Shown piece after piece: positions 497 to 21,369 of a stretch of 32,000 bases of DNA. The stretch is from assembly GCA_004284765.1 (NCBI GenBank), contig NQJD01000012.1, positions 1 to 32,000 on the forward strand, written 5' to 3'. The translations under genes were made by a program, and so were the position numbers. Every line of letters starts with the position of its first letter. Within the stretch, counting starts at the first letter, position 1. The stretch is from Candidatus Electronema aureum (GTDB taxonomy: Bacteria > Desulfobacterota > Desulfobulbia > Desulfobulbales > Desulfobulbaceae). Below the pieces are notes generated by a model. The model had not been told where the DNA came from, made no database searches, and saw only the letters and a list, made by a program, of their open reading frames with translations.

Positions 497-1402
497 CTAA
501 AAAGAGTTGCACATTAGGTGAAATGTATTGTTAATGCGAATTAGGAGTTGAAAATAGGAGTAAGCAGCAACAGTAAGCAGCAACATGGCGGCCGCTAATT
601 TTCCATAGACATGAACAAGCAAGCCCTGTGTTGAGCGAACCTTTGAAGCAGTTTGGATGCCGGTTTTTTCGTCAATCCAGTTGAACAGCGACTCAATGGG
701 CTGCCTGACCATGCTGACAGCCGATGATAGGATTTCGTCCATCACGCTGAGTTTCTGCCCTTTCTTTCTTTTGAACGGCGTATTCAAAGAGGTGTTCTGT
801 TCTTCCAGACGCTGCTTGAGCGCATTGCTGACATACGCTTTGTCCGCATAGACAGAAGTGTCGTGCAAATCGTCGGCAATTTCTTTCAGGACATTAATGT
901 CCGCTGTGCTTGCCGGTGTGATTCCGATATAATCAGGCAGAGGAAGCCGCCCATTTCTTCGGACAGCAAAGATATGGAGCTTGAGGCCGCAAAAATACGT
1001 TTCTTTGACGGAATTATACCCTTTGTCGTTGATTTCACGGGAAACTTTCGCCCGGCTGCTGCGCCGGGCGTTTGCGGTCATGATCGGCATGGAGTCGATC
1101 AGGTGGACATATCCTGCGTCAGGCAGCGGAGCGAAATCATTCTGAATGAGAGAAAGCAGTCCGGCAAAAACTTGAGGGAGACGGTTCAGTCGCTGAATAT
1201 ACGTTGCATATGCCCGAAGTTTTGGAAACCATTCCTTCAGATGATTCCGAACGTATTCATAACTAGGCTTCACTTTCCGGTGACCATTCATAATCCCCCA
1301 CAAATAAACCGTCAGAACCTCGGCATCGCTGAATTCTGGATTGGAATTGTTGCTCATCCGTTCTGCACAAATAAACAGGCCGGATGCGCGATGCTTGTCC
1401 AT
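497..1402 (-). CDS. IS982-family DDE transposase
   Basis: 301-aa ORF. It has an N-terminal FSDAEVLTVYLWGI block, then HLIDSMPI, VYADKAY and RQPIESLFNWI..KVRS..GL..HVY blocks that I recognise as IS982-type. The ORF reads through the left IR (535-549) and stops only at 497-499 in flanking DNA. An alternative start is M16 at 1357. Confidence 0.85.
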   Translation of the reverse strand: MDKHRASGLFICAERMSNNSNPEFSDAEVLTVYLWGIMNGHRKVKPSYEYVRNHLKEWFPKLRAYATYIQRLNRLPQVFAGLLSLIQNDFAPLPDAGYVHLIDSMPIMTANARRSSRAKVSREINDKGYNSVKETYFCGLKLHIFAVRRNGRLPLPDYIGITPASTADINVLKEIADDLHDTSVYADKAYVSNALKQRLEEQNTSLNTPFKRKKGQKLSVMDEILSSAVSMVRQPIESLFNWIDEKTGIQTASKVRSTQGLLVHVYGKLAAAMLLLTVAAYSYFQLLIRINNTFHLMCNSF

Positions 1403-1530
1403 GTAATAAAAAAATGTTATAACACGTTATTGCCAATCCATTTATTCCTCCTGCGGTCAAGTCGGCAAAGATGGTGCTTTACCGGCGTATAGTACAGGAA
1501 TAATGGATTGGTTTTAACTCCTAATTCGCA
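535..1530 (-). mobile_element. Complete IS982-family insertion sequence (996 bp)
   Basis: TGCGAATTAGGAGTT at 535-549 is the exact reverse complement of 1516-1530 (15/15, or 18/20 when extended inward). The pair brackets one DDE transposase ORF, and the size fits IS982 (about 1 kb). The right boundary abuts the last homologous codon of an IS30 transposase gene. Confidence 0.8.
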
Positions 1531-1869
1531 TTGATAGATTCGTTCATGACTGACCTGAAGATTTTTGGTTGCGGATAGCCAGCCGCTGATGTGTTCAGGA
1601 CTCCAATCTTCGCAGAGAAGATCATTGACAATATGCCATATTTCTTCAGAAATTCTTAGCTTGGTCTTTTCTTGGCGGCGTTGACCAGACAGTTGTTGTG
1701 CCTGCTTGGGTCGATAGCCGCGTTCACCGCTATTACGCTGTAATTCTCGACCGATAGTTGATCTGTGTCGGCCAAGCTGCAAGGCTATGGCTGATTTCTG
1801 ATGCCCTGCTTGCTTTAAGGCGTAAATTTGGTTACGCTCTGCTTCGGTGAGTTGTGTGTAGTTTTTCAT
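1531..1869 (-). pseudogene. IS30-family transposase, N-terminal 113 codons only, truncated by the IS982 insertion
   Basis: From ATG 1867-1869 the translation is MKNYTQLTEAERNQIYALKQAGHQKSAIALQLGRHRSTIGRELQRN...WSPEHISGWL...VSHERIYQ. This is the HTH region plus the conserved SHE-IY motif of IS30 transposases. Sensible sequence ends at 1531, the base adjacent to the IS982 IR. The catalytic DDE part is missing from the window. ORF-track entry 1417..1917 is this fragment plus read-through into IS982. Confidence 0.75.
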
Positions 1870-2096
1870 CCGTGCTTCTCTTGCTTGCCGGTAAGAAATG
1901 AGCCAGCATACTACCACAACTCACTTTTCTTACAACCAGACAAAAGTTGCACTTACAAGTTGAATTCACCGCCACACCTTGATAACCAGCATCTGCCAGC
2001 AGCACGACATGCGCTTCTTATTTCAACTGCGTAACTCCTAAATATATCCAAAAAAAATAAAAATCAACGGATTTAACCCACAACCAGCTATCTCAC

Positions 2097-7488: not shown

Positions 7489-8106
7489 CTATCTGCGTGT
7501 GTGTAGTGCGGTAAAATACTGGCGAACGGCATAAATCCCCTTAATAGCTATTTCATATGGTGGGGAGGTGAGAGGGTTGATGTCAAGGCCAAGCACCATC
7601 AGGCTGGTGAGCTGGAATAGCTCAAGCGGCAGGGCGGTGAGCTGGTTGTTGCGGAGGTCAAGTTGCTCCAGCTTTGCAAGCTGGCAGATTTCAGGCGGCA
7701 GAGTGGTGAGCTGGTTACCGCCGAGGTGAAACCCCGTCAGGCTGGTGAGCTGGAACAGCGCAGGCGGCAGGGTGGTGAACTTGTTGCCGCCGAGGTAAAG
7801 TTTGTCCAGCTTGGTGAGCTGGCAGATTTTAGGCGGCAGGGTAGTGAGCTGGTTGCCGCTGAGGTGAAGCCACGCCAGGCTGATGAGCTGGTTGAAGTTA
7901 AGGTAAAGCTCCGCTAGCATGGTGAGCTGGCCAATCTCAGGCGGCAGGGCGGTGAGCTGGTTGCCGCTGAGGTCAAGTGCTCCCAGATTACTGAGCTGGC
8001 CAATCTCAGGCGGCAGGACGGTTAATCCTTTATTGCATAGGTCAAGCTCAGTCGCCCTGTTTGCCTTTGCACTCTTTATCACCCTCAGTAGCTCGTCATT
8101 CGTCAT
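7489..8106 (-). CDS. Leucine-rich repeat protein (N-terminal LRR module of a former ROCO gene)
   Basis: The start is chosen at ATG 8104-8106 (MTNDELL), preceded by AGGAGA. There are six to seven 23-aa LRRs, LxxLxLxGNQLTxLPPEIxQLxx. One unit is only 13 aa long (LAELYLNFNQLIS). The protein ends NPLTSPPYEIAIKGIYAVRQYF, the linker that normally precedes a Roc domain, followed 7 codons later by TAG. The ORF-track N-terminal extension to 8307 runs through a 23-bp tandem repeat. Confidence 0.8.
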   Translation of the reverse strand: MTNDELLRVIKSAKANRATELDLCNKGLTVLPPEIGQLSNLGALDLSGNQLTALPPEIGQLTMLAELYLNFNQLISLAWLHLSGNQLTTLPPKICQLTKLDKLYLGGNKFTTLPPALFQLTSLTGFHLGGNQLTTLPPEICQLAKLEQLDLRNNQLTALPLELFQLTSLMVLGLDINPLTSPPYEIAIKGIYAVRQYFTALHTRR

Positions 8107-8148
8107 CGCCTGTTCTCCTGTGTTGTTTGTGGGGTTGTATGGCATTCG

Positions 8149-8286
8149 GAGCAAGCACGCTTGGTCAGCAGCAGTAAGCCTGCTTGCCGGGTTTGAGCAC
8201 GCATGTGTGCTGGGTGTGAGCAAGCGTGCGTGCTGGATACGAGCAAGCATGTGTGCTCGGCAGGAGGAACCATGCGTGCCGACGGC
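8149..8286. repeat. Tandem array, 6 units of exactly 23 bp, each with an imperfect 16-nt palindrome
   Basis: The units start at 8149, 8172, 8195, 8218, 8241 and 8264. The best-conserved are GAGCACGCATGTGTGCTGGGTGT, GAGCAAGCGTGCGTGCTGGATAC and GAGCAAGCATGTGTGCTCGGCAG. The outer units are degenerate. The period is not divisible by 3. The array lies between the acr3 stop and the LRR gene start. Confidence 0.7.
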
Positions 8287-8450
8287 ATCGTGGCGTAGGG
8301 GCAACAAATCTTTTGCCCTGTTTGGTATTACCGTGCTGGTGCCAGGGCGAAAGATTTTTCGCCGCTACCTGAATCATCCTCAAGGGTGCCCTGCTAAATG
8401 CCGGATGGAACTGGATGCTGCTGCGTCCATGATTGTGTTGCAGAAATTTA

Positions 8451-9509
8451 TCAAAGGCTGGGTTCATTGAACATCCGCTTCCGCAGCATGAAGGCCGCAT
8501 TGACCAGCGCGATCATCACTGGCACTTCGATCAGCGGCCCGATGACCGCCGCGAAGGCTGCGCCGGAACCGATGCCGAACACGGCCACTGCGACGGCAAT
8601 CGCCAGCTCAAAGTTGTTGCTGGCGGCAGTGAAGGCGAGCGTGACCGTCTTGCCGTAGTCTGCCCCGACCATGCGCCCCATGAAAAAGGAGGCAAAGAAC
8701 ATGATCAGGAAGTAGATCAGCAGCGGCACAGCGATGCGCAGCACGTCCAAGGGCAGCGAGACGATGGCATCGCCCTTGAGGGAGAACATCACCACGATGG
8801 TGAAGAGCAGAGAGATCAGCGTGAGCGGGCTGATGCGCGGCACAAAGACGCTGTGATACCAGTCTTTGCCCTTGGCACGGATGAGCAGCAGGCGGGTGAA
8901 GAAGCCTGCCAGAAAGGGAATGCCCAGATAGATGAACACGCTCTTGGCGATTTCGCTAATGGTGATGTCAACGATGCTGCCTGTCATCCCGAACCATCCC
9001 GGCAGGACGGTGATGAACACCCAGGCGTACAGGCTGTAGAACAGAACTTGGAAGATGCTGTTGAAGGCCACCAGACCGGCGGCGTACTCGTTGTCGCCCT
9101 TGGCCAGCTCATTCCAGACAATGACCATTGCTATGCAGCGGGCCAGACCGATCAGGATGAGACCAGTCATGTATTCGGGGTAATCGCGCAGAAAGATGAC
9201 AGCAAGCAGGAACATCAGGACCGGGCCGATCAGCCAGTTCTGCACGAGCGACAAACCGAGGACTTTCCAGTTGCGGAACACATCGCCCAGCTCTTCATAA
9301 TGCACCTTGGCTAATGGCGGATACATCATGAGGATCAGGCCGACCGCAATCGGGATGTTGGTCGTGCCGACTGAGACCATGCTGTTCAAGCTGCTGACAG
9401 CACGGGGGAAGGCAAAGCCGATGCCGACCCCGATGCCCATTGCCAGAAATATCCACAGGGTCAGGTAGTGGTCGAGAAAGGACAGCTCTTTCGGTGATTC
9501 CTGCGTCAT
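8451..9509 (-). CDS. acr3: ACR3-family arsenite efflux permease
   Basis: 352 aa with about 10 TM segments. It carries [22 protein letters not shown], the hallmark [19 protein letters not shown] and [22 protein letters not shown] lies 6 nt upstream. Confidence 0.9.
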
Positions 9510-9629: not shown

Positions 9630-10208
9630 CTAGTAAGCGGCCTCAGGCTTCAGTGTCATCAAAAACCTGCCTATCTCCTCGATAGTCAGCACCTGATCAG
9701 CGTGCACACAAAGTAGGGCAGAACGCGGCATTTCTGGGAACTGGGCGGTCTCAGGTCGCTGCACCAAGGTCAGGCCACCACAGTCCTTGATTCGTTTCAG
9801 GCCGAGTGCGCCGTCGCTATTGGCACCGGTAAGAACAACTCCAGCCAAGGCAGGGCCATAGACATCAGCCGCGCTCTCAAATAGCACATCAATTGAAGGA
9901 CGACAGAAGTTGACCTTCTCCTCCACCGACAAGGAAAAGGTCTCATCGTGCTCAATCAACAAGTGGTAGTCAGGAGGAGCTACATAGACATTGCCGGGCA
10001 ATATCTTCTCTCTCTCAGACGCTTCCTGTACCTTGAGATGGGTGCTGCTGCTGTAAAAGCGAAACAGGTATTCGCCCTGTTCGCGGTGCAGATGCTGAAC
10101 AATGATCAGCGGCAACCGAAAGCTCGTACCTAACTGGGCCAGCAGCGTCGCCACGGCCTGCATTCCACCTGCGGAGCAACCTGCAACCACAGCTCGGTAC
10201 TTCTTCAT
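9630..10208 (-). CDS. cheB: CheB-type protein-glutamate methylesterase, catalytic domain only (no receiver domain)
   Basis: 192 aa. It carries VVAGCSAGGMQA (nucleophile Ser region), PLIIVQHL (His) and VVLTGANSDGALG (Asp). There is a 4-nt overlap with cheR. Confidence 0.85.
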   Translation of the reverse strand: MKKYRAVVAGCSAGGMQAVATLLAQLGTSFRLPLIIVQHLHREQGEYLFRFYSSSTHLKVQEASEREKILPGNVYVAPPDYHLLIEHDETFSLSVEEKVNFCRPSIDVLFESAADVYGPALAGVVLTGANSDGALGLKRIKDCGGLTLVQRPETAQFPEMPRSALLCVHADQVLTIEEIGRFLMTLKPEAAY

Positions 10209-11056
10209 CGCGTGCGTCCTTCTCCGGCTTCCAGTACCCGCTTGCGGTAGATTCTATTCTTGCTATCGATCTCGTCATGGCGACCATCACCACAGGAGAA
10301 GCGCAGGCTTTCCTTGGTGCCGAGACAGAGGAAACCGCCCCGGATCAGACTGCTGTCTAAGAGTCGCAGCACCCGATCTTTCAGTTCCCGATCAAAGTAG
10401 ATCATCACATTGCGGCAAAGAATAAGGTGCATCTCGGCAAAGACGTGATCAGAGACTAAGTTATGATTAGCAAAGGTGATGCTCTTTTTTAGTTCTCGGT
10501 TCATGACGATGTGGTCATGCGAGGCGTGATAATATCTGCTGAACGAATCGTGCGGCCCGCTCTTCTGATAGTTCTCTGTGTATTCTCGTACTTGCCGGAG
10601 CGGATAGATACCCTCTTTCGCCACCGCTAATGCTTGGTCGTTGATGTCGGTAGCATAGATAGTTGAGTGAGCAGCTAATCCTTCCTCTTTGAGCAGAATA
10701 GCCAAGGAGTAGGCTTCCTCGCCGCAAGCACAGCCTGCTACCCAGACTCGGATAAAGGGGTACGTCTTGAGCAGTGGCACCACGTTCTCCCTCAGCGAAC
10801 GGAAGAACTCTGGGTCACGAAACATGCCGGACACAGTGATCGAGAAGGCAAAAAGCAGCTCTTGGAAGAAGGCAGGTTCATGCAGCAACTTGGGGATCAA
10901 CTCGCCTACCGAGGCAATGCCGCTCTGCTCCAGCAGGAGCCGCAGCCGCCGTACCACGCTGGCCCGCGCATAGCTGCGGAAGTCGTAGCCATAACGACGG
11001 AAGACTGCTTCTAACAGCAGATCGATCTCGATAGCCTCCAGCTCGCCTGAAGTCAT
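10205..11056 (-). CDS. cheR: CheR-type protein-glutamate O-methyltransferase
   Basis: 283 aa. The CheR N-domain is YGYDFRSYARASVVRRL. It is followed by MFRDPEFF, then the SAM-binding block IRVWVAGCACGEEAYSLAILL and ATDIN. Confidence 0.9.
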   Translation of the reverse strand: MTSGELEAIEIDLLLEAVFRRYGYDFRSYARASVVRRLRLLLEQSGIASVGELIPKLLHEPAFFQELLFAFSITVSGMFRDPEFFRSLRENVVPLLKTYPFIRVWVAGCACGEEAYSLAILLKEEGLAAHSTIYATDINDQALAVAKEGIYPLRQVREYTENYQKSGPHDSFSRYYHASHDHIVMNRELKKSITFANHNLVSDHVFAEMHLILCRNVMIYFDRELKDRVLRLLDSSLIRGGFLCLGTKESLRFSCGDGRHDEIDSKNRIYRKRVLEAGEGRTR

Positions 11057-11078
11057 CGCCCATCCCTTGCCGAGCCAC

Positions 11079-11216
11079 AGGTACGAGAGTACCTTCTCGT
11101 TGAGTACGAGAGTACCTTCTCGTTGAGTACGAGAGTACCTCCCCGTTTGGTATGGGAATACCTTTCCGTTGGGTACGAGAATACCTTTCCGTTAGGTATG
11201 AGAATACCTAACCAGA
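11079..11216. repeat. Tandem array, 6 units of exactly 23 bp, each carrying a hairpin-forming palindrome
   Basis: The units start at 11079, 11102, 11125, 11148, 11171 and 11194. Units 1-2 are GAGTACGAGAGTACCTTCTCGTT (unit 1 has A for the first G). The later units drift (TGGTATGGGAATACCTTTCCGTT and similar). Within a unit, GGTAC-N4-GTACC and ACGAGA-N6-TCTCGT are self-complementary. The array lies between the kinase stop (11302) and the cheR start (11056). Confidence 0.85.
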
Positions 11217-11301
11217 AACTACTCTGGTACCTTGGTACCAACCACTCTGGTGATTGACCGACAGGCTCTTTTCTTGTTATCAGCATGAATATCTTGACTA
11301 T

Positions 11302-14300
11302 CTATCTGTATAACCAAACTCGCATCATCGACAGCAACCGCTCTAAGTCAATCGGCTTGGCCAAGTAGTCGCTGGCTCCGGCCTCAATACACTTTTCCCG
11401 GTCTTCCTTCATTGCCTTGGCAGTCAGGGCAATCACCGGCAGATCGCGGAACTCGCGCTGCGCCCTGATCTTACGGGTGGCCTCGTAGCCGTCCATCTCT
11501 GGCATCATGATGTCCATCAGCACTAAATCAATTTGCCCGTCTTCAGCTAAAGCCTTCAGGGCTTTCTTCCCATCTTCAGCGATGATCACTTCCATGCCTT
11601 TGTCCTCTAAAATACCAGAGAGGGCAAAGACATTCCGCATGTCATCATCAACCAAAAGGATACGCTTGCCCTTGAAGATGTTCTCTTGATCGTACAGTCC
11701 GGTGATGATCTCTTGCTTCTTGTCTGGCATTTGCTCCACCACCCGATGCAGAAAGAGCGAGGTCTCGTCTAAAAGCCGTTCGCGGGAGCGGGCATTCTTA
11801 ATGATGATCGACTCGGCATACTTGTTCAGCTCTTTCTCCTCGTCGCGGCTCAGTTCCCTACCAGTGTAGATAATCACCGGCGGCACCCTGAGACCTTGCT
11901 CGGCGACTAACGTGCGCAGCAGCTCGATGCCGTTGCAGTCGGGTAAGCCTAAGTCTAAGACCATGCAGTCGAACTGCTGGCTGTGCAGCAATTCATTGGC
12001 TTCTGCACCGGTCTTGGCCTCCTCAATCACGGTGTCCTCGCTGCCTACCAGCTCAACCAAAGCGGCTCGCAGGACATTGTCGTCCTCCACCACCAAAAGT
12101 CGCTTGACCTTGCTGCTACTGATTGACTCAAAGCGGGCCAGTGCCTCAGCGATCTGTTCCTGATCTACTGGCTTAGTGAAGAAGCCCACCGCACCCTGCC
12201 GGAAGGCTTCTCGACTGCCTTCCTCCACTGACATCATATGTACCGGGATATGCCGGGTGCTGGGATTGGTCTTCAGACTGGTTAGCACGGTCCAGCCGTC
12301 AATGCCGGGCAGCTTGATGTCAAGGATAATGCCAGTGGGCTGATGCCGCTCGGCCAGCTGAAGTCCCTCTTCACCGGTCTCAGCAGCCAAGACTTTGAAG
12401 CTGCGCTGACGGCATTGATCCATGAGAATCTTAGCGAACTTGCGGTCATCCTCAATGATCAGGATGCTGCGCGTCTCAGGAGTCAGGCGGTTGCGGTCGT
12501 CAGTAGGTATCTCCTGCGGCGGCTGCTGTCTGGGTGATAACGAGAAGGCAGCAGGCCGAGGCGGTGCAGTCGGTGTTCTTTCCTTTTCGTCTGGGGTCTC
12601 AGGACAGCTCAGGGGTAGATAGAGGGTGAAGACTGAGCCTTTGCCCGGCTCACTGACGAGTTGAATCTCGCCGCCAAGCAACGCAGCTAACTCCCGCGAA
12701 ATCGACAAGCCAAGGCCAGTACCGCCGTACTTGCGGCCAGTGGAGCCGTCTGCCTGCTGGAACGCCTCAAAGATGATCTTCTGCTTATCCTGCGGAATGC
12801 CAATGCCGGTGTCAGTCACGCTGATCGCAATACTCTCGTCAGCCAGCAAACCCTCACGGCGGAGGCGAGTGTTCTTTGGCGGTTGGGTGAAAGCCAGCCT
12901 AACGCTGCCTGTTTCAGTGAACTTGATGCTGTTGCCGATGAAGTTCTTCACAATCTGCTCGATTCGCTTGCGGTCGGTGAAGATGTTCTCTGGCAAGGCG
13001 GGATCAATGCTGACCGAGAACTCTAACCCTTTCAGCTCGGCCATGTGCCGGAAGAGATTGCGGGCGTTCTCAGCCACCTCGGTCAACGGCACTTCCTCGG
13101 CTTCCACTTCCACCCGACCTGCCTCAATCTTAGACAGATCAAGTATCTCGTTGATCAGGTTGAGCAGGTCTTTACCTGACTCAACAATCACTCCGGCAGC
13201 TTCCTGCTGATGTTCGGTCAGATTGCCCTGCTTGTTATCCGATAGCGTCTGGGAGAGCAGCAGCAGGCTGTTGAGCGGGGTGCGCAGCTCGTGGCTCATG
13301 TTGGCCAAGAACTCGGACTTATACTTGGAAGCCAAGGCTAAATCGCGCGAACGCTCCTCAATCTCCTCGCGGGCGGCAATCAGCTCTTGGTTGCGTGTCT
13401 CAATCTCATTCTTCTGTGAGATCAGTGCCTCGGTTTTCTCTTTGAGGCGGGAGTTGGTGGCCTCTAACTCCGCTTGCTGGCTTTCTAATTCCTCTTGGAA
13501 CTCTTTCAGCGCAACGGTCTGCGCCTCTAATTCCTCGTTGGTCGTCTTCAGCTCTTCGCTCTGATGCCGCAGTTCCTCAGACTGCCGTTGGGTCTCTTCC
13601 AGCAGCTCCTGCACCTCTTGGCGACGACGGGCGACATCAAAGACAATGGCAATGCTGCTGGTTACATCGCGGAGGAAATTCATATCCGCATCAGAGAATT
13701 CTTTGAACGAGGCCAGCTCAATCACACCCACCAACCGGTCTTCATGAAGAAAAGGAGCAGCCACGATGTTACAAGGCGCAGCGTCACCCAGCGTCGAGCT
13801 GATGCGAACATAGCCTTCAGGTAGATCAGTGACAGAGATGAGCGACTTCTCCAGCGCGGCCTGCCCGGCCAACCCCTCGCCCAGCTCAATCATCGAATTG
13901 AGGCCCTTGCGTTTACTGAAGGCGTAGCTGCCGGTCATAAGTAAGGCTTTTCCACTTTTGTCAGCAAGATAAAGCGAGGCCATCTGCGCACCAAGATAGC
14001 GGACGAGAAAGCTGGTGATGGTCTGGGCCAGCATTCGTGCATCCTGCTGTCCTCGAGTCTGCTCAGACAACTCAGCGATGCCAGCCTTATGGCGGAAGTT
14101 CTTGGCCACCGTATCAACCATAAAGTCGAGCGCATCGGCCAGCTGGCCGATTTCATCCGAACGCCGCAGATGAAGCCGCTGCGTAAGGTCACCTGCGGCA
14201 ATGATATCTGCCACTCCTGCTGCATAGATAATTGGCTTGCTGATTGAACGGGCAATGAACCACGCTACCGCACCCACTGCCAAAAAAGTCAGCAGCAGGG

Positions 14301-15375
14301 CAGCGATGATGGAGTTCACCACTTGACGGCTTGCCTCGGCACTGGTCTTGTTCATCACGGTCTTGTAGCGCAGGGCTTCACTCTCGTTGACCTCGCAAAT
14401 CAGTGCCCAGCGCACGCCAAAGACATCAACCGAACTCCACGAGGACAGCACTGTGTTACCCAGATAATCCGTAATAACTCCGGTGCCGCTTTCGCCTTTG
14501 AGTGCGTTGCGGCTGGCCTCAGTGTTGACTTTGTTGCCCTGCCGAAAAGACTCCACCCGACTGTAGCGTTCCGGGGCCACCAATGAATCAGACCGCATGT
14601 AGCCGTCCTTGCCCACTAAATACGCCTCTAATGTTTTTTTATGCTCAGAGACTAACCTGATCATATTCCGCAGTGCTTCTGTGGAAGGCTGCACTGCCAG
14701 AAAGATATTGCCTTCGCCCTTGTTCTTGATTCTAGTGATGAGAAAGGCAGAAGGCTCGTTATTGAGTGGTGCGTAGGGCGCGTAATCGCCAAAAGCCATC
14801 TCTTGGCCAGAGTTCTGCTGGAGTTGAGCAAAAGCCCTGCCTAATGAACTGCTCATCAGTGGCGGACGACTGAGAGACAGGCCGAGGTCAGAGGCTTTGT
14901 TCAAGGAATAAATGATGCTGCCTTGAGCGTTAATCAAAAAGACGTTGTGCCAGTCAAAATCACGGCAGACATCTTGGAAGAGGAAGTCATTTTCTTTGGC
15001 TATCTTTTGCCACGCATCCGAGCTTACGGAGTTACCTGCACCCGCAAAAACTTGGCCAAATTCTTGAGACACCTGCATTAACCAAGGATTGTCCCGAAGC
15101 ATATACATCTGCCCTTCCATCTTCTTGAAAAAGGAGGCAATCTGCTTTTCCTTGATTTGGCACATGACCTTCAGCTCGTCGTAGGCAGCCTGCTCCACAG
15201 CGGCAACCCCTTGGCCGCCCACCGTCTTCAGTCCCTGCGAGGCGATCAACCACAGCATCACCCCGATGAAGAGCAGGGGAATAATGCCCACACAGAGATG
15301 GGAGGCGATCAGTCTGGTGTGCAGACCGCCTTTGACGGCGGTGCGACTACGGCTGGCGGCTGGCTGGTTCTTCAT
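11302..15375 (-). CDS. Hybrid sensor histidine kinase: TM, Cache-like periplasmic domain, TM, HAMP, GAF, long coiled coil, HisKA, HATPase_c, three receiver domains
   Basis: 1357 aa with two hydrophobic segments (aa ~22-45 and ~353-375). The HAMP region is SISKPIIYAAGVADIIAAGDLTQRL. A GAF-like region spans aa ~440-580. The H-box is FLANMSHELRTPLN, and the G-boxes are DTGIGI and GGTGLGLSISRELA. The three REC domains are ILIIEDD..ILDIKLPGIDG, LLVVEDD..VLDLGLPDCNG and ILLVDDD..LMDIMMPEMDG. Confidence 0.9.
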   Translation of the reverse strand: MKNQPAASRSRTAVKGGLHTRLIASHLCVGIIPLLFIGVMLWLIASQGLKTVGGQGVAAVEQAAYDELKVMCQIKEKQIASFFKKMEGQMYMLRDNPWLMQVSQEFGQVFAGAGNSVSSDAWQKIAKENDFLFQDVCRDFDWHNVFLINAQGSIIYSLNKASDLGLSLSRPPLMSSSLGRAFAQLQQNSGQEMAFGDYAPYAPLNNEPSAFLITRIKNKGEGNIFLAVQPSTEALRNMIRLVSEHKKTLEAYLVGKDGYMRSDSLVAPERYSRVESFRQGNKVNTEASRNALKGESGTGVITDYLGNTVLSSWSSVDVFGVRWALICEVNESEALRYKTVMNKTSAEASRQVVNSIIAALLLTFLAVGAVAWFIARSISKPIIYAAGVADIIAAGDLTQRLHLRRSDEIGQLADALDFMVDTVAKNFRHKAGIAELSEQTRGQQDARMLAQTITSFLVRYLGAQMASLYLADKSGKALLMTGSYAFSKRKGLNSMIELGEGLAGQAALEKSLISVTDLPEGYVRISSTLGDAAPCNIVAAPFLHEDRLVGVIELASFKEFSDADMNFLRDVTSSIAIVFDVARRRQEVQELLEETQRQSEELRHQSEELKTTNEELEAQTVALKEFQEELESQQAELEATNSRLKEKTEALISQKNEIETRNQELIAAREEIEERSRDLALASKYKSEFLANMSHELRTPLNSLLLLSQTLSDNKQGNLTEHQQEAAGVIVESGKDLLNLINEILDLSKIEAGRVEVEAEEVPLTEVAENARNLFRHMAELKGLEFSVSIDPALPENIFTDRKRIEQIVKNFIGNSIKFTETGSVRLAFTQPPKNTRLRREGLLADESIAISVTDTGIGIPQDKQKIIFEAFQQADGSTGRKYGGTGLGLSISRELAALLGGEIQLVSEPGKGSVFTLYLPLSCPETPDEKERTPTAPPRPAAFSLSPRQQPPQEIPTDDRNRLTPETRSILIIEDDRKFAKILMDQCRQRSFKVLAAETGEEGLQLAERHQPTGIILDIKLPGIDGWTVLTSLKTNPSTRHIPVHMMSVEEGSREAFRQGAVGFFTKPVDQEQIAEALARFESISSSKVKRLLVVEDDNVLRAALVELVGSEDTVIEEAKTGAEANELLHSQQFDCMVLDLGLPDCNGIELLRTLVAEQGLRVPPVIIYTGRELSRDEEKELNKYAESIIIKNARSRERLLDETSLFLHRVVEQMPDKKQEIITGLYDQENIFKGKRILLVDDDMRNVFALSGILEDKGMEVIIAEDGKKALKALAEDGQIDLVLMDIMMPEMDGYEATRKIRAQREFRDLPVIALTAKAMKEDREKCIEAGASDYLAKPIDLERLLSMMRVWLYR

Positions 15376-16357
15376 CGGCGCATTGATTGGTCAGGCTGTT
15401 GTAAACGATCACTCGGTTTCTGCCGCTTTCTTTGGCGCGGTACAGGGCGCGGTCGGCGCAGCAGATCAAGTCATCGGGTTGCTGCGGCTGGTGATTTTGA
15501 TACGAAGCGATGCCGATGCTGACAGTCATGCTGATACTGAATTGACCGTTGGCAAAGGGTTGTTCTAAGCAGTGATTGCGAATTTTCTCCGCCGCGATTA
15601 ACGCACCGCTGACATTGGTCTGTGGCAGCAGAATGATGAATTCCTCACCGCCAAAGCGAAAAGAAAAATCTGAACTACGGAGACCGGTGAGAATACGAGC
15701 AGCAAATTCTTTAATCACATAGTCGCCGAAATCGTGGCCGTAGCTGTCATTCACCTGTTTAAAATAGTCGAGATCGAGCATAAGCAACGACAGCTCGGTG
15801 CCGTAGCGTCGGCTCCGTTCCACCTCTCGCTTCATGACTTCAGCCAGCTTGCGCCGATTACAGAGACCGGTTAGTTCATCATGGGTAGCTAACCGCTCTA
15901 ACTGCCGGTTTTGTTCCAGCACTAATTGCTTAGTTCGCTCTAATTCACTGATGGTTTCTTTCAGTTGTTGCTGTTGTCGATAGATTTCTATGAAGAAAAG
16001 TACCTTGCCGATCAGGATTTCTGGGTGAAACGGCTTGGTGATGAAATCTACCGCTCCTGAATTATAGCCTTTGAAGATGTGAAAGCTGTCAGAATAAATG
16101 GCGGAGAGAAAAATAATTGGCAAACGACTGGTCTTCTCTCGGCCTCGGATTAGTCGGGCTAATTCGTAGCCGTCCATTTCCGGCATCTGCACATCAAGAA
16201 TGGCTAAGGCAAAGTCGTGATGAAGCAGCTCTCTAAGTGCGTCGTTGCCACTGGTGGCCTCGACAAACTCTGCCGTCACCTCTTGGAGAACGGTTTTCAG
16301 GGTGAAAAGATTGTTCGGTTTATCATCGACAATCAGTATCTTGATCTGCTCCGCCAT
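15347..16357 (-). CDS. Response regulator with GGDEF output (diguanylate cyclase)
   Basis: 336 aa. The REC domain is KILIVDDKPNN..ILDVQMPEMDGYEL. A coiled linker follows, then the GGDEF domain with LTGLCNRR and the RFGGEEF active site. Its 3' end overlaps the kinase start by 29 nt. Confidence 0.9.
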   Translation of the reverse strand: MAEQIKILIVDDKPNNLFTLKTVLQEVTAEFVEATSGNDALRELLHHDFALAILDVQMPEMDGYELARLIRGREKTSRLPIIFLSAIYSDSFHIFKGYNSGAVDFITKPFHPEILIGKVLFFIEIYRQQQQLKETISELERTKQLVLEQNRQLERLATHDELTGLCNRRKLAEVMKREVERSRRYGTELSLLMLDLDYFKQVNDSYGHDFGDYVIKEFAARILTGLRSSDFSFRFGGEEFIILLPQTNVSGALIAAEKIRNHCLEQPFANGQFSISMTVSIGIASYQNHQPQQPDDLICCADRALYRAKESGRNRVIVYNSLTNQCADEEPASRQP

Positions 16358-19545: not shown

Positions 19546-21369
19546 ATGTGTGATCCAGCTCCCCATCAGCCTGCCGCGCTCCTGCATGAGGATGTCTATC
19601 TTGAGGATGGCGAAGTCGTCCTTGCGGTGGATGATTTCGTCCAGATAGCCGATATCATTCAGGCGTATCTCCAGCACCGCTGCCTCAAAACCATGACCGC
19701 TGGTTCGGTGGCCGAATTTCGGCAGATGCTGAAGCAGGTGCCGGTGGCTTTGGTGCTGTTGGATATTAATCTACCTGACGGCAACGGCGCGGATTTGATC
19801 CCAGAAATTAAGGCAGCTTATCCCGATACCGCTGTGATTATGCTCTCCGGCGTGACTGATCTCCAGACCGCGCTCAAGTGCATCCGCCACGGCGCGGACG
19901 ATTACCTGACCAAGCCGGTGCAGTTTGAGCCATTCTGGGAGACGGTGCGCAAGGTACTGGAAAAACGACGGCTGAAGATCAACAACCGTCGTTATCAAAA
20001 GCAGATTGAGCAGGCAAATTTTCGCCTTCAATTGATGCATGAGCTGTCAGTAAAGATGAACACGGCCTACCTCAGCATGAATGCCTTGGATGAAATTCTG
20101 CGGGCTATTTTGGTAGGTATCACCGCTGAAGAAGGGCTGGGCTTCAACCGAGCCTTTCTCGCTCTTTTCGATGACTCCGAGCAGATACTCGAAGGCCGGA
20201 TGGCAATCGGGCCAGGCCGCCGAGAGGACGCGCTCCGCATCTGGCAGGAGATTAACAAACAAGACCTCAGTTTTCACGATCTCATCGATTCTGTCCGTGG
20301 GCATGATTTTCATGAGGATAGCGAAGTGAACCGGATTGTCAGGGCATTGCGGATTGAGTCTGCCGACAAAGAGCATCTGCTCTTCCGCGCTGCCTCAGAA
20401 CGCCGGACTATTAATGTTTGCAGCGGCCAATGCGACTGCCCGGTGCCGGTGGAGTTGATGGGTCTTTTGGAGGAGGACAGCTTTGTGGTGGTGCCGCTTT
20501 TCTCCCAGAATCATTCGTTAGGTGTGATCATTGCCGATAATTTTGTCACTGGCAAGCAGATTGATGAAGAATTAGTTCATGCTTTGGAGAGCTTTGCCAG
20601 CCAAGCCAGTTTAGCAATTGAACATTGGCGAATGTACATGCATATGGAGCATAAAATCAATGAGTTAGAGACAGTCACCGAGGAATTAGACAAGAACAAA
20701 GATATGTTAGTGGAGGCCGAGCGTTATGCTGCGGTTGGCCAAGTAGCGGCACAGTTAGCCCACAACATCCGCAATCCGGTCACGGCTATTGGCGGCACCG
20801 CTCGATTGCTCAGTCGGAAGATCAGTGATCCGCAACAGCTCAATTTTCTCAGCATGATGATTAAAGAGGCAGTCAAAATTGAGCATACGCTGGAGGACTT
20901 GCTTAACTTTGTCGATAAAGAACAGCCTGCGATAGAACAGGTGCTGCTCTATCCATTGCTCATCAAATCACTGATGCTATTTTACAGCACTATGCAGAAG
21001 CAGGGGATTGAATACGAGGTGATCATGATTGATCGCCAGCTCATCTGTATGGTTGATCCCAAACAGATGAGACAGGTTTTTGTTCATCTGATCCGCAATG
21101 CAGTAGAGGCGATGGAGCAGGGCGGCAAGCTGATCATAGAAGCAGCGACCGCAGACGGACAGCTGCGCATCGCAGTGCGAGACAGCGGTCTTGGTATTGC
21201 TGAAGCGGACATCCGCCGGGCAACTGATCCCTTCTACACCACCAAGATCGCAGGCACTGGCGTTGGTTTGGCTTTAGTACAACGGGTGATCAAGGATCAC
21301 AACGGCTCGATGATTATTAGCAGGCGACCAAGCGGTGGCACGAAAGTTGCCCTTGTTCTGCCTGGATAA
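19546..21369 (+). CDS. Sensor histidine kinase with N-terminal receiver and GAF-like domain
   Basis: 607 aa. The REC domain is VLAVDD..LLDINLPDGNGADL..LSG..K. A GAF-like middle region follows. The H-box is AAQLAHNIRNPVTAIGG, and the HATPase motifs are HLIRNAVEAM, DSGLGI and GTGVGLALV. The frame opens at 19495 and the first start codon is ATG 19546. Confidence 0.85.
   Translation: MCDPAPHQPAALLHEDVYLEDGEVVLAVDDFVQIADIIQAYLQHRCLKTMTAGSVAEFRQMLKQVPVALVLLDINLPDGNGADLIPEIKAAYPDTAVIMLSGVTDLQTALKCIRHGADDYLTKPVQFEPFWETVRKVLEKRRLKINNRRYQKQIEQANFRLQLMHELSVKMNTAYLSMNALDEILRAILVGITAEEGLGFNRAFLALFDDSEQILEGRMAIGPGRREDALRIWQEINKQDLSFHDLIDSVRGHDFHEDSEVNRIVRALRIESADKEHLLFRAASERRTINVCSGQCDCPVPVELMGLLEEDSFVVVPLFSQNHSLGVIIADNFVTGKQIDEELVHALESFASQASLAIEHWRMYMHMEHKINELETVTEELDKNKDMLVEAERYAAVGQVAAQLAHNIRNPVTAIGGTARLLSRKISDPQQLNFLSMMIKEAVKIEHTLEDLLNFVDKEQPAIEQVLLYPLLIKSLMLFYSTMQKQGIEYEVIMIDRQLICMVDPKQMRQVFVHLIRNAVEAMEQGGKLIIEAATADGQLRIAVRDSGLGIAEADIRRATDPFYTTKIAGTGVGLALVQRVIKDHNGSMIISRRPSGGTKVALVLPG

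What the first reader, a model, noticed from the sequence alone, without database searches (positions are those of the whole stretch)
9630..16357. CheR + REC-less CheB coupled to a classical hybrid histidine kinase and a REC-GGDEF: chemotaxis-style adaptation without MCP, CheW or CheA
Four co-directional genes read as one unit.
- REC-GGDEF (16357 to 15347); its stop overlaps the kinase start by 29 nt.
- A 1357-aa kinase (TM, Cache-like, TM, HAMP, GAF, coiled coil, HisKA, HATPase, REC x3).
- CheR and CheB, which overlap by 4 nt.

CheR and CheB are established as modifiers of glutamates on MCP signalling helices. Here there is no MCP, CheW or CheA. CheB also lacks the receiver domain through which CheA normally controls it.

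The output side resembles Wsp (CheR/CheB plus a REC-GGDEF). In this cluster, however, a class-I HisKA kinase replaces the MCP/CheW/CheA core.

The simplest hypothesis is that the kinase itself is the methylation/demethylation substrate. This would give a two-component c-di-GMP pathway with sensory adaptation. Fused CheB-CheR-PAS-kinase proteins exist in databases, but to my knowledge they are essentially uncharacterised.
Basis: partly seen in the sequence, partly recalled or inferred. Interest (0 to 1): 0.7.

Follow-up and report, generated by a model that had tools for sequence, protein, structure and literature searches.

The report
Methylation-tuned histidine kinase signalling module
A membrane sensor kinase that feeds a c-di-GMP-making enzyme sits beside its own chemotaxis-type methyl-adding (CheR) and methyl-removing (CheB) enzymes; this widespread module has been demonstrated once, in Bacillus cereus, so the find is real but not a new kind of system.

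Summary
Four co-directional genes on the minus strand encode REC-GGDEF, a 1357-aa hybrid kinase (TM, Cache-like, TM, HAMP, GAF, about 100-aa coiled coil, HisKA, HATPase, three REC), CheR, and a 192-aa CheB with no receiver domain. The 32-kb window has no MCP, CheW or CheA.

The arrangement is not chance.
- In 80 loci found through the CheB alone (at least 10 phyla), CheR is adjacent in 76. The same type of kinase lies on the same strand in 61.
- These kinases carry an invariant Leu heptad, usually preceded by a Glu-Glu pair, at fixed distances from the phospho-histidine.
- In a reciprocal kinase-anchored search, kinases with the Glu-Glu motif had CheR next door in 13 of 17 cases. Sister kinases without it had CheR in 0 of 17.

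It is not new. B. cereus RsbK (CHASE3-HAMP-GAF-S-helix-kinase-REC) is methylated on its S-helix by the neighbouring CheR-type enzyme RsbM. RsbK-like kinases were reported in 10 phyla.

This locus is a further member of that family. It adds a dedicated esterase, three receivers and a c-di-GMP output. Interest is moderate.

The parts
15347..16357 (-). REC-GGDEF response regulator (336 aa): receiver residues 7-118 (Asp55), GGDEF residues 157-315 with GGEEF at 236 and an RSSD I-site at 227
   Evidence: Pfam (GGDEF 1.5e-47, Response_reg 1.6e-24). Motifs. The same gene sits 5' of the kinase in Electrothrix loci L001/L002 and in near-identical strain L161.
11302..15375 (-). Hybrid histidine kinase, 1357 aa: TM1, periplasmic Cache-like domain, TM2, HAMP, GAF, S-helix, HisKA (His695), HATPase, REC x3. 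No HPt domain.
   Evidence: Pfam, hydropathy. The same architecture is linked to CheR-CheB in 61 of 80 loci.
14398..15198 (-). Periplasmic sensor region (residues 60-326), dCache_1-like
   Evidence: Pfam: E 1.4e-07 and 31.7 bits, below the 45-bit gathering score. The precomputed Pfam hit for the identical protein in L161 is dCache_1. TM segments flank the region.
13639..14259 (-). HAMP (residues 373-422) and GAF (residues 445-579)
   Evidence: Pfam (HAMP 1.6e-11, GAF_2 3.2e-17).
13327..13623 (-). S-helix (residues about 585-683): coiled coil running from GAF into the DHp helix, with Leu every 7 residues. Predicted methyl-accepting Glu pairs: E600/E601, E607/E608, E614/E615, E628/E629 and A635/E636 (nt 13468-13578).
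   Evidence: Across 77 CheR-linked kinases (61 in the profile) Leu is invariant at -65, -58 and -51 and at 88-98% at -86, -79 and -72. The preceding pair is EE in 84-97% at -88/-87, -81/-80 and -53/-52. No Pfam family covers this segment.
12610..13320 (-). HisKA (residues 686-753, phospho-acceptor His695) and HATPase_c (residues 801-922)
   Evidence: Pfam. H-box SHELRTP located.
11323..12471 (-). Three receiver domains (about residues 969-1088, 1091-1215, 1237-1351), with acceptor Asp1019, Asp1141 and Asp1288 all present
   Evidence: Pfam (three stretches). Motif positions. In one search, 52 of the 61 linked kinases carry three RECs.
11080..11209 (-). 23-bp tandem repeat (5.7 copies) of small palindromes (GGTAY-TCYC-RTACC) in the kinase-cheR gap, preceded by a terminator-like hairpin at 11224-11241
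   Evidence: Conserved in 98%-related strains with paired T:A to C:G changes. RNA fold z-score -3.6. Absent from Electrothrix relatives, where the gap is 25-50 nt.
10205..11056 (-). CheR-type protein-glutamate methyltransferase (283 aa): all-alpha N-domain plus SAM-binding domain
   Evidence: Pfam (CheR 5.8e-42, CheR_N 4.4e-10). Motifs VAGCACGEE, ATDIN and CRNVMIYF are present. The closest solved structure is B. subtilis CheR 5FTW. It scores below the NCBIfam chemotaxis CheR cut-off (84 vs 435 bits).
9630..10208 (-). Stand-alone CheB methylesterase/deamidase catalytic domain (192 aa), no receiver domain; catalytic Ser12, His39, Asp132
   Evidence: Pfam. The triad columns are invariant in 28 homologues and were mapped on the T. 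maritima CheB catalytic domain 3SFT; residue numbers. All 120 best homologues are 181-230 aa single-domain proteins.

Best explanation
This is a two-component c-di-GMP pathway whose sensor kinase is covalently tuned by its own CheR/CheB pair.

Proposed signal path:
1. The periplasmic Cache-like domain senses a ligand.
2. The signal passes through HAMP and GAF into a coiled coil of about 100 residues (the S-helix), which is continuous with the helix carrying His695.
3. That coiled coil has Leu at one core position and mostly Asn/Gln at the other. It exposes Glu-Glu pairs once per heptad.
4. CheR methylates these glutamates using SAM. The receiver-less, presumably constitutively active CheB hydrolyses the esters, and may deamidate Gln.
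5. The number of neutralised glutamates changes the stability or rotation of the helix. This biases the balance between kinase and phosphatase activity.
6. Phosphoryl groups go directly from His695 to the N-terminal receiver of the REC-GGDEF protein (no HPt domain is present). The three C-terminal receivers of the kinase act as internal regulators or sinks.

What is shown:
- the domain anatomy;
- intact catalytic residues;
- the conserved linkage;
- the motif and its co-variation with CheR.

What is inferred:
- that the kinase is the substrate;
- the direction of the effect;
- that the cycle gives adaptation rather than a simple on/off lock.

Feedback, if any, would have to come from conformation-dependent access of the two enzymes to the helix, because CheB has no receiver domain to be phosphorylated.
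For: 1. Linkage.
- Eighty loci were found with a REC-less CheB profile in one genome per species; at least 597 loci exist.
- CheR is adjacent in 76 of them.
- A HAMP-GAF-coiled coil-HisKA-HATPase-REC(2-4) kinase lies on the same strand in 61 (55 within 600 nt).
- The kinase is upstream in 42 and downstream in 19. This argues for selection on linkage rather than inherited gene order.
- The phyla include Desulfobacterota, Bacteroidota, Nitrospirota, Planctomycetota, Chloroflexota, Omnitrophota, Spirochaetota, Armatimonadota and Gammaproteobacteria. Alphaproteobacterial plasmids also carry the module.

2. No chemoreceptor core.
- No MCP-signalling or CheW-like ORF occurs in 160 related loci.
- The search seeds were validated against Pfam.
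- No other gene family is conserved across the loci, and no conserved HPt partner emerged.

3. Substrate-like motif.
- Positions are anchored on the phospho-His. Leu recurs every 7 residues from -93 to -16.
- The two preceding residues are Glu-Glu in 53% of 616 slots in 77 CheR-linked kinases, against 16% of 192 slots in 24 CheR-less relatives.
- Three sites are 83-97% Glu.

4. Reciprocal test.
- Kinase-anchored loci came from metagenomes.
- With the motif, CheR is adjacent in 13 of 17. Without it, 0 of 17 (Fisher p = 5e-6).

5. Enzymes look active.
- The CheB Ser/His/Asp triad is invariant.
- The CheR SAM motifs are present.

6. Precedent.
- The B. cereus CheR-type enzyme RsbM methylates the hybrid kinase RsbK (CHASE3-HAMP-GAF-S-helix-HK-CA-REC) on its S-helix. 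This is needed to keep the kinase off (PMC4574943; PMC12848376; PMC10950880).
- From my memory of Chen et al. 2012, the sites are E439 and E446, with His505 as phospho-acceptor. Those are His-66 and His-59. In this kinase the same offsets are E629 and E636, each the residue just before a heptad Leu.

7. Fused proteins.
- Fused CheB-CheR-PAS-kinase proteins in Flavobacterium loci carry a similar NEEL-type heptad coiled coil after the CheR domain.
Against: - There is no biochemical evidence for this protein or for any esterase-containing member of the family.
- The kinase and cheR are separated by 245 nt carrying hairpin repeats and a terminator-like hairpin, so cheRB may be transcribed or regulated separately here.
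- This kinase, like its Electrothrix relatives, has lost the family's best-conserved site at -53/-52. It has S642/R643 there.
- Nine CheB-anchored loci with ample flanks have CheR-CheB but no such kinase nearby. They have only a REC-kinase or REC-GGDEF neighbour. The pair can therefore act in trans or on another partner.
- The known CheR/CheB substrate is an antiparallel four-helix bundle. An S-helix is expected to be a parallel two-helix coiled coil, and it shows no detectable similarity to MCPsignal.
- The rest of the genome is unseen, so MCPs may exist elsewhere.
- The Fisher test is not corrected for phylogeny. Many motif-less kinases belong to one clade.
Confidence: 0.7

Rival explanations
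1. The CheR/CheB pair serves ordinary MCPs encoded elsewhere in the genome. It lies next to the kinase only for co-regulation, for example so that the two-component system controls the level of adaptation enzymes.
For: The rest of the genome is unseen. The 245-nt gap with hairpins could make cheRB its own transcription unit. Both proteins belong to the CheR and CheB families by Pfam. Nine related loci lack the big kinase.
Against: - Linkage to one specific kinase architecture holds in at least 10 phyla and in both gene orders.
- No MCP or CheW occurs in 160 loci.
- The Glu-Glu motif of the kinase tracks the presence of CheR.
- CheB lacks the receiver through which CheA controls it.
- Both enzymes score far below the NCBIfam chemotaxis cut-offs.
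- The clade is abundant in Bacteroidota such as Flavobacterium, which to my knowledge are non-flagellated and generally lack CheA/CheW/MCP. This last point was not tested here.
Confidence: 0.12
2. CheR/CheB modify a receiver domain or the partner response regulator rather than the S-helix. Candidates are one of the kinase's three RECs or the REC-GGDEF. This would resemble the reported methylation of PhoP by CheR in Salmonella.
For: The kinase carries three receivers and every conserved neighbour starts with a receiver. CheR methylates Glu/Asp pairs of the response regulator PhoP (PMC8546571 abstract).
Against: The feature that co-varies with CheR is the Glu-Glu heptad on the helix. CheR-less sister kinases keep three RECs and the same C-terminal end. 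The B. cereus precedent places methylation on the S-helix.
Confidence: 0.08
3. The kinase is the substrate, but methylation is a static lock, as proposed for RsbK, and not an adaptation cycle. CheR keeps the kinase off by promoting binding of an inhibitory receiver. CheB serves only as a release or maturation (deamidation) enzyme.
For: In B. cereus, loss of RsbM or of the C-terminal REC gives constitutive output. Methylation strengthens the REC-S-helix interaction (PMC4574943). CheB here has no receiver for feedback.
Against: A dedicated esterase is co-inherited with CheR in 76 of 80 loci. That is hard to explain without turnover of the methyl groups. Multiple heptad-spaced sites resemble the graded multi-site code of MCPs.
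Confidence: 0.25

Closest known systems
RsbK-RsbM-RsbY module of Bacillus cereus (Chen et al. 2012; Chen et al. 2015, PMC4574943; de Been et al. 2010/2011)
   Same: - Both have a membrane hybrid kinase with extracellular sensor, HAMP, GAF, S-helix, HisKA, HATPase and C-terminal REC.
- Both have a CheR-type methyltransferase gene next to the kinase gene.
- Both have a cognate regulator with an N-terminal REC, and no HPt.
- In RsbK, methylation of the helix preceding the H-box controls output.
- RsbK-like kinases were reported in 10 phyla.
   Different: - This module has a dedicated REC-less CheB esterase. RsbM is described as an orphan methyltransferase.
- It has three receivers instead of one.
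- Its sensor is Cache-like rather than CHASE3.
- Its output is a diguanylate cyclase rather than a PP2C phosphatase feeding sigma-B.
- Direct sequence comparison with RsbK and RsbM could not be made here.
Wsp chemosensory system (WspA-F, WspR) of Pseudomonas
   Same: CheR (WspC) and CheB (WspF) adjust a signalling complex whose output is phosphorylation of a REC-GGDEF (WspR). This statement rests on established knowledge.
   Different: Wsp has an MCP (WspA), CheW-like proteins (WspB/D), a CheA-REC kinase (WspE), and a CheB with a receiver. None of these is present in this locus. Here a HisKA-class kinase is sensor, putative methyl-acceptor and phosphodonor in one protein.
Classical MCP adaptation system (CheR, CheB, MCP methylation helices)
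   Same: - The enzyme families are the same, with an intact CheB triad and CheR SAM site.
- Candidate sites are Glu-Glu pairs spaced 7 residues apart on a long helix. This resembles the MCP site consensus Glu-Glu-x-x-Ala-Ser/Thr, for example window NEELEAQT and AELEAT.
   Different: - The S-helix has no MCPsignal similarity.
- The substrate is expected to be a parallel two-helix coiled coil, not an antiparallel four-helix bundle.
- There is no CheA-to-CheB phosphorylation feedback.
- There is no NWETF-type tether. The conserved C-terminal RVWLY(K/R/Q) also occurs in CheR-less relatives.
Fused CheB-CheR-PAS-histidine kinase proteins (KEGG 'CheBR fusion')
   Same: They have a REC-less CheB domain and a CheR joined to a class-I kinase. 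A heptad NEEL-type coiled coil follows CheR (L063 protein). They occur within 7 kb of the stand-alone module in three Flavobacterium loci.
   Different: The enzymes are fused to the kinase rather than separate. Similarity to the window's proteins is only moderate: CheB 37-39% and CheR 28% identity. No function has been reported in the papers I could search.

Membership tests
RsbK/RsbM-type methylatable hybrid kinase module | Hybrid kinase with sensor, HAMP, GAF, S-helix, HisKA, HATPase and C-terminal REC | tested here: met
   Pfam. Heptad helix shown. RsbK architecture as described in PMC4574943.
RsbK/RsbM-type methylatable hybrid kinase module | CheR-type methyltransferase gene adjacent to the kinase gene | tested here: met
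   cheR lies 245 nt downstream of the kinase. Linkage of CheR-CheB to this kinase type is conserved in 61 of 80 related loci.
RsbK/RsbM-type methylatable hybrid kinase module | Glutamates on the S-helix at the positions methylated in RsbK (E439 and E446, relative to His505) | tested here: inconclusive
   His-66 and His-59 in the window kinase are E629 and E636, each just before a heptad Leu. The RsbK site numbers come from my memory of Chen et al. 2012. Only His505 was verified. No RsbK sequence was available to align.
RsbK/RsbM-type methylatable hybrid kinase module | Detectable sequence homology of the kinase to RsbK and of CheR to RsbM | not testable with these tools
   The RsbK and RsbM sequences (e.g. 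WP_002197482.1) could not be fetched.
RsbK/RsbM-type methylatable hybrid kinase module | SAM-dependent methyl transfer from the CheR-type enzyme to the kinase | not testable with these tools
   This needs biochemistry. It has been shown only for RsbM/RsbK.
RsbK/RsbM-type methylatable hybrid kinase module | Adjacent cognate regulator with an N-terminal receiver, and no HPt | tested here: met
   REC-GGDEF overlaps the kinase start. No HPt domain occurs in the kinase, and no conserved HPt-like partner gene emerged among the loci. The output domain differs from RsbY (PP2C).
Classical chemosensory pathway (MCP-CheW-CheA core) | MCP with signalling domain in the cluster | tested here: not met
   No MCPsignal in any scanned window ORF (150 aa or longer), nor in 160 related loci.
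Classical chemosensory pathway (MCP-CheW-CheA core) | CheA kinase and CheW coupling protein | tested here: not met
   No CheW-like domain (also part of CheA) in the window or in the 160 loci. The rest of the genome was not seen.
Classical chemosensory pathway (MCP-CheW-CheA core) | CheB with an N-terminal receiver domain phosphorylated by CheA | tested here: not met
   CheB is 192 aa and consists of the catalytic domain only. All 120 best homologues are also single-domain.
Wsp-type chemosensory c-di-GMP system | MCP (WspA), CheW-like proteins and a CheA-REC kinase upstream of the REC-GGDEF | tested here: not met
   Only CheR, CheB and REC-GGDEF are shared. The core is replaced by a HisKA-class kinase.
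CheB methylesterase/deamidase family | Ser-His-Asp catalytic triad | tested here: met
   Ser12, His39 and Asp132. The columns are invariant in 28 homologues. They align with T. maritima CheBc. The triad definition is taken from PMC7698151.
CheR methyltransferase family | Two-domain fold with an intact SAM-binding motif | tested here: met
   CheR_N plus CheR in Pfam. Aligns over residues 22-251 with B. subtilis CheR 5FTW. Motifs confirmed.
Active diguanylate cyclases (GGDEF) | GG(D/E)EF active site; RxxD inhibitory site | tested here: met
   GGEEF at residue 236 and RSSD at residue 227, with the usual five-residue spacing.

The most novel reading that the evidence does not exclude
The stand-alone CheR plus REC-less CheB pair, together with the Glu-Glu heptad S-helix, forms a complete and reversible methylation-adaptation device for ordinary two-component kinases.
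- It would be independent of MCP arrays and present in hundreds of species over at least 10 phyla, including non-flagellated lineages.
- It would work on a parallel coiled coil.
- It would obtain feedback purely from conformation-dependent substrate access, because CheB cannot be phosphorylated.
- The presence or absence of the Glu-Glu code would then predict which kinases adapt.
- Reversible methylation (the esterase half) has never been demonstrated for any such kinase.
Probability: 0.45. Interest if true: 0.55.

Novelty: new member of a known kind. Interest (0 to 1): 0.4.

Why it matters
Two-component kinases are usually thought to lack the covalent 'memory' that lets chemoreceptors adapt. 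The RsbK/RsbM work showed that one kinase is methylated. That system has no esterase and is read as an off-lock.

The family seen here is much larger, and it nearly always keeps a dedicated esterase. It has a simple sequence signature: Glu-Glu before each heptad Leu, at fixed distance from the phospho-His. That signature predicts whether CheR is next door.

The signature gives concrete residues to mutate. The family also includes culturable organisms, notably Flavobacterium species and Rhizobium, Sphingobium, Brucella anthropi and Photobacterium strains. These hosts could be used to test whether a two-component or c-di-GMP pathway truly adapts.

For this particular genome, a relative of cable bacteria, the module points to an adaptively tuned c-di-GMP input whose signal is unknown.

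Tried and rejected
1. Has a CheB-type receiver moved onto the kinase?
- REC1 and REC2 were searched against solved structures. They match PleD, Spo0F, NtrC and similar proteins, and CheB is not among the best 60. Rejected.

2. Is the strikingly conserved C-terminus RVWLY(K/R/Q) a CheR/CheB tether like NWETF?
- CheR-less sister kinases end in LRMWLHR or RVWLYR as well. It is not specific to the methylation module.

3. Is the S-helix homologous to MCP methylation helices?
- Pfam at E up to 10 gave only generic coiled-coil noise.

4. Is there another conserved partner, such as HPt, MCP or CheW?
- Clustering of 1086 other ORFs from the first 80 loci found nothing conserved beyond lineage-specific synteny, at most 10 loci.

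5. Is there a named equivalent in NCBIfam?
- None passes its cut-off.

6. Can the window kinase be aligned directly to RsbK?
- The sequence was not obtainable, and the papers by de Been 2011 and Chen 2012 are not held.

7. Has any CheB-containing kinase module been characterised?
- Ten literature searches found none in the held library.
- The Caulobacter Hmr pathway and the Azospirillum survey turned out to be unrelated or merely descriptive.

8. Does the kinase-cheR intergenic repeat match a known RNA?
- Rfam and the tRNA scan found nothing in the window.


Full report
**What is there**

The minus strand between 16357 and 9630 carries four ORFs.
- A 336-aa REC-GGDEF at 15347-16357.
- A 1357-aa kinase at 11302-15375, whose start overlaps the previous stop by 29 nt.
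- A 283-aa CheR at 10205-11056.
- A 192-aa CheB at 9630-10208, overlapping CheR by 4 nt.

- The kinase has HAMP, GAF, HisKA, HATPase_c and three receiver stretches. It also has a weak dCache_1 match (31.7 bits against a 45-bit cut-off).
- That weak match lies between two hydrophobic segments at about residues 22-50 and 351-378.
- CheB is the catalytic domain only.

The catalytic machinery looks intact.
- The CheB Ser12/His39/Asp132 triad is present.
- The CheR SAM-binding motifs are present.
- The cyclase has GGEEF and an RSSD inhibitory site.
- All three kinase receivers keep their acceptor Asp.
- No HPt domain is present in the kinase.

The other 19 ORFs scanned (150 aa or longer) encode unrelated functions. 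None is an MCP, CheW or CheA. They include:
- a polyprenyl synthase;
- a DinG-like helicase;
- an SBF symporter;
- an LRR protein;
- biotin-pathway enzymes;
- a second REC-GAF kinase;
- GlgB;
- an OmpA-family giant protein;
- a transposase.

- It holds a 23-bp tandem repeat of small palindromes (11080-11209).
- It also holds a terminator-like hairpin.

**Is it more than a chance juxtaposition?**

The best homologues of the CheB come from cable bacteria (Ca. Electrothrix, Ca. Electronema). All 120 best hits are 181-230 aa single-domain proteins. Receiver-less CheB is therefore a large family, not a truncation.

A profile of 28 of these proteins was used to scan one genome per species.
- At least 597 loci encode a relative, and the best 80 were fetched with 10-kb flanks.
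- I called ORFs in those loci and searched them with the window's own domains.
- CheR is directly adjacent in 76 of 80.
- A kinase with HAMP-GAF-coiled coil-HisKA-HATPase followed by two to four receivers (three in 52 cases) lies on the same strand in 61 of 80. It lies within 600 nt in 55.
- Of the 19 exceptions, 10 are contigs cut less than 3.5 kb upstream of cheB. Nine have ample flanks and really lack the kinase.
- The kinase is upstream of cheRB in 42 loci and downstream in 19. The linkage has therefore been kept through rearrangements.

The loci come from many lineages.
- They include Desulfobacterota, Bacteroidota (with cultured Flavobacterium, Botryobacter and Longitalea) and Nitrospirota.
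- They also include Planctomycetota (Scalindua), Chloroflexota, Omnitrophota, Spirochaetota, Armatimonadota and Cloacimonadota.
- Gammaproteobacteria are represented by Photobacterium and Beggiatoa.
- The same module sits on alphaproteobacterial plasmids such as Rhizobium sp. BG4 pRPC2 and a Sphingobium baderi plasmid.

A further protein that begins with a receiver is usually present. It may be REC-HisKA-HATPase-REC, REC-PAS-kinase, REC-GGDEF or REC-PAS-GGDEF-EAL. The output is variable, and c-di-GMP synthesis is one of several options.

No other gene family is conserved across the loci, and no conserved HPt partner emerged. No MCP-signalling or CheW-like ORF occurs in any of the 160 loci examined.

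**A substrate-like signature on the kinase**

I aligned the kinases on the phospho-histidine, which is His695 in the window.
- This reveals a gap-free heptad. Leu recurs every seventh residue from -93 to -16 and runs straight into the H-box helix.
- The position three residues before each Leu is mostly Asn, Gln or Thr. That suggests a marginally stable coiled coil with a polar core (my inference).
- The two residues immediately before each Leu are Glu-Glu. The frequencies are 84/97% at -88/-87, 93/88% at -81/-80, 83/90% at -53/-52 and 57/63% at -60/-59.
- The family consensus reads QQEELRxxNEELEEQ, and it appears twice.

The window kinase has E600/E601, E607/E608, E614/E615, E628/E629 and A635/E636. 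Like its Electrothrix relatives, it has lost the -53/-52 pair and carries S642/R643 there.

Pfam has no model for this segment, and it does not resemble MCPsignal.

**Reciprocal test**

I built a profile of the S-helix plus DHp region and used it to scan metagenome contigs. This returned 80 kinase-anchored loci chosen without reference to CheR or CheB.
- I considered only loci with at least 2 kb on both sides of the kinase.
- Kinases with the EEL-x3-(N/Q/S/T)(E/A)EL motif have CheR next door in 13 of 17 cases.
- Kinases without the motif have CheR in 0 of 17 (Fisher p = 5e-6).
- Over both data sets, the pair before the heptad Leu is Glu-Glu in 53% of slots in 77 CheR-linked kinases. It is Glu-Glu in 16% of slots in 24 CheR-less ones.
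- The CheR-less kinases have a shorter helix with Lys-Glu and Glu-Gln at the corresponding places.
- The test is not corrected for phylogeny, and many motif-less kinases form one clade of about 2100-aa proteins. It is supportive rather than conclusive.

**What is already known**

The literature search turned up a direct precedent.
- In Bacillus cereus the hybrid kinase RsbK has CHASE3, HAMP, GAF, S-helix, HK, CA and REC domains.
- RsbK is methylated on its S-helix by RsbM (BC1007, annotated cheR), which is encoded in the same operon.
- Loss of RsbM, or of the C-terminal REC, gives constitutive sigma-B activity. Methylation strengthens the REC-S-helix interaction (PMC4574943; PMC12848376; PMC10950880; gene table in PMC3788345).
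- PMC4574943 states that the RsbK-M-Y mode is widespread. It also states that 127 RsbK-like kinases occur in 10 phyla, and that RsbM has no cognate methylesterase.
- PMC12848376 notes that de Been and colleagues found a genomic association between RsbK and CheR.

Two further points rest on my memory of papers that are not held.
- de Been et al. 2011 proposed sensitisation and desensitisation of RsbK-type kinases by methylation and demethylation of the helix preceding the H-box.
- Chen et al. 2012 identified Glu439 as the preferred site and Glu446 as a minor one.

With His505 as phospho-acceptor (verified), those sites are His-66 and His-59. In the window kinase the same offsets are E629 and E636, each the residue just before a heptad Leu. 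This agrees with the motif found here, but it rests partly on recollection. I could not obtain an RsbK sequence to align.

**Most likely mechanism**

1. The kinase senses a periplasmic signal through its Cache-like domain.
2. HAMP and GAF transmit the signal into the long S-helix.
3. CheR methylates the exposed Glu pairs and CheB removes the methyl groups.
4. The resulting charge pattern changes helix stability or rotation, and with it the kinase/phosphatase balance at His695.
5. The phosphoryl group passes directly to the REC-GGDEF.
6. The kinase's own receivers act as internal regulators, as the single REC of RsbK does.

CheB lacks a receiver. Removal of the receiver is known to activate E. 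coli-type CheB (established knowledge; receiver phosphorylation stimulates CheB). The esterase is therefore probably constitutively active. Any feedback must come from conformation-dependent access of the two enzymes to the helix.

The anatomy, the linkage and the motif are shown. The identity of the substrate, the sign of the effect and true adaptation are inferred. I put 0.7 on the kinase being the substrate. Within that, I leave substantial room for a static-lock reading rather than adaptation.

**Rivals**

- The pair might serve MCPs encoded elsewhere. This is disfavoured by the cross-phylum linkage, the missing receiver and the motif co-variation. It is not excluded, because the genome is unseen and nine related loci lack the kinase.
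- The pair might modify a receiver domain, as CheR does with PhoP in Salmonella (PMC8546571). However, CheR-less sister kinases keep the same receivers and C-terminus.

**Rejected ideas**

- The kinase's receivers are not CheB-like.
- The conserved C-terminal RVWLY(K/R/Q) is not specific to CheR-linked kinases.

**Verdict**

The locus belongs to an already described kind: RsbK/RsbM-type methylatable hybrid kinases.

It differs from the one characterised example in four ways.
- It has a dedicated REC-less esterase.
- It has three receivers.
- It has a Cache-like sensor.
- It has a diguanylate cyclase output.

The esterase half of the cycle, and adaptation itself, remain untested anywhere. That keeps the finding moderately interesting (0.4) rather than ordinary.

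Noticed in passing
window 11080-11209 (and hairpin at 11224-11241), minus strand: The kinase-cheR gap holds a 23-bp tandem repeat (5.7 copies) of small palindromes, GGTAY-TCYC-RTACC. It occurs nowhere else in the window. Strains with 98%-identical CheB (L161, L162) keep the same number of units, and the two arms of the palindrome change together (T:A to C:G). The RNA fold z-score is -3.6. Electrothrix relatives lack it (their gap is 25-50 nt). It could be a hairpin array or an array of sites for a dimeric DNA-binding protein.
   Followed up: partly
L063 16950-20561, L064 17163-20549, L068 8013-11686: Three Flavobacterium loci carry the stand-alone CheR-CheB plus S-helix kinase. Within 7 kb they also carry a fused CheB-CheR-PAS-HisKA-HATPase protein. 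That protein has its own heptad coiled coil (EELQAANEEIVSSNEEFQTLNEELETSKEEIEATNEEL) about 200 residues after the CheR domain.
   Followed up: partly
L109, L113, L114, L120, L122, L124, L127, L130 and others (kinase-anchored metagenome loci): A sister clade of about 2100-aa kinases has nearly the same DHp and three receivers but no CheR/CheB. Its pre-H-box helix is shorter, and the Glu-Glu pairs are replaced by Lys-Glu and Glu-Gln (KELQQTNEQL). Each is followed by a REC-PAS-HisKA_3 kinase.
   Followed up: partly
C-termini of the kinases in L001-L160; window 11305-11322: The hybrid kinases end almost invariantly in (L/M)RVWLY(K/R/Q) directly at the C-terminus, across phyla. CheR-less relatives end in LRMWLHR. 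The reason for a conserved aromatic C-terminal end is not known.
   Followed up: partly
window 19546-21369 (+): A second signalling protein, REC-GAF-HisKA-HATPase (607 aa), is transcribed divergently from the helicase gene, 3 kb from the module. A possible connection with the module's phosphorelay was not examined.
   Followed up: no
window 27107-30865 (+): A 1252-aa ORF has a C-terminal OmpA domain and a long coiled-coil-like body. It contains a 126-bp tandem repeat (28031-28285) and shows unusually strong AT skew (0.27-0.43 over 27-30 kb).
   Followed up: no
window 497-1917 (-): A DDE transposase (301 aa) and an HTH protein (166 aa) lie at the low-GC end of the window (GC 0.43-0.46 against about 0.54 elsewhere). 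This is probably an insertion sequence.
   Followed up: no
window 7489-8307 (-): A leucine-rich-repeat protein (272 aa) has DNA-level repeats of 69 and 138 bp (7599-7891).
   Followed up: no
L162 5966-7996 versus window 8451-9509: In one strain with a 98%-identical CheB, the gene after cheB is a sulfatase instead of the SBF symporter seen here. The conserved block therefore ends right after cheB.
   Followed up: no
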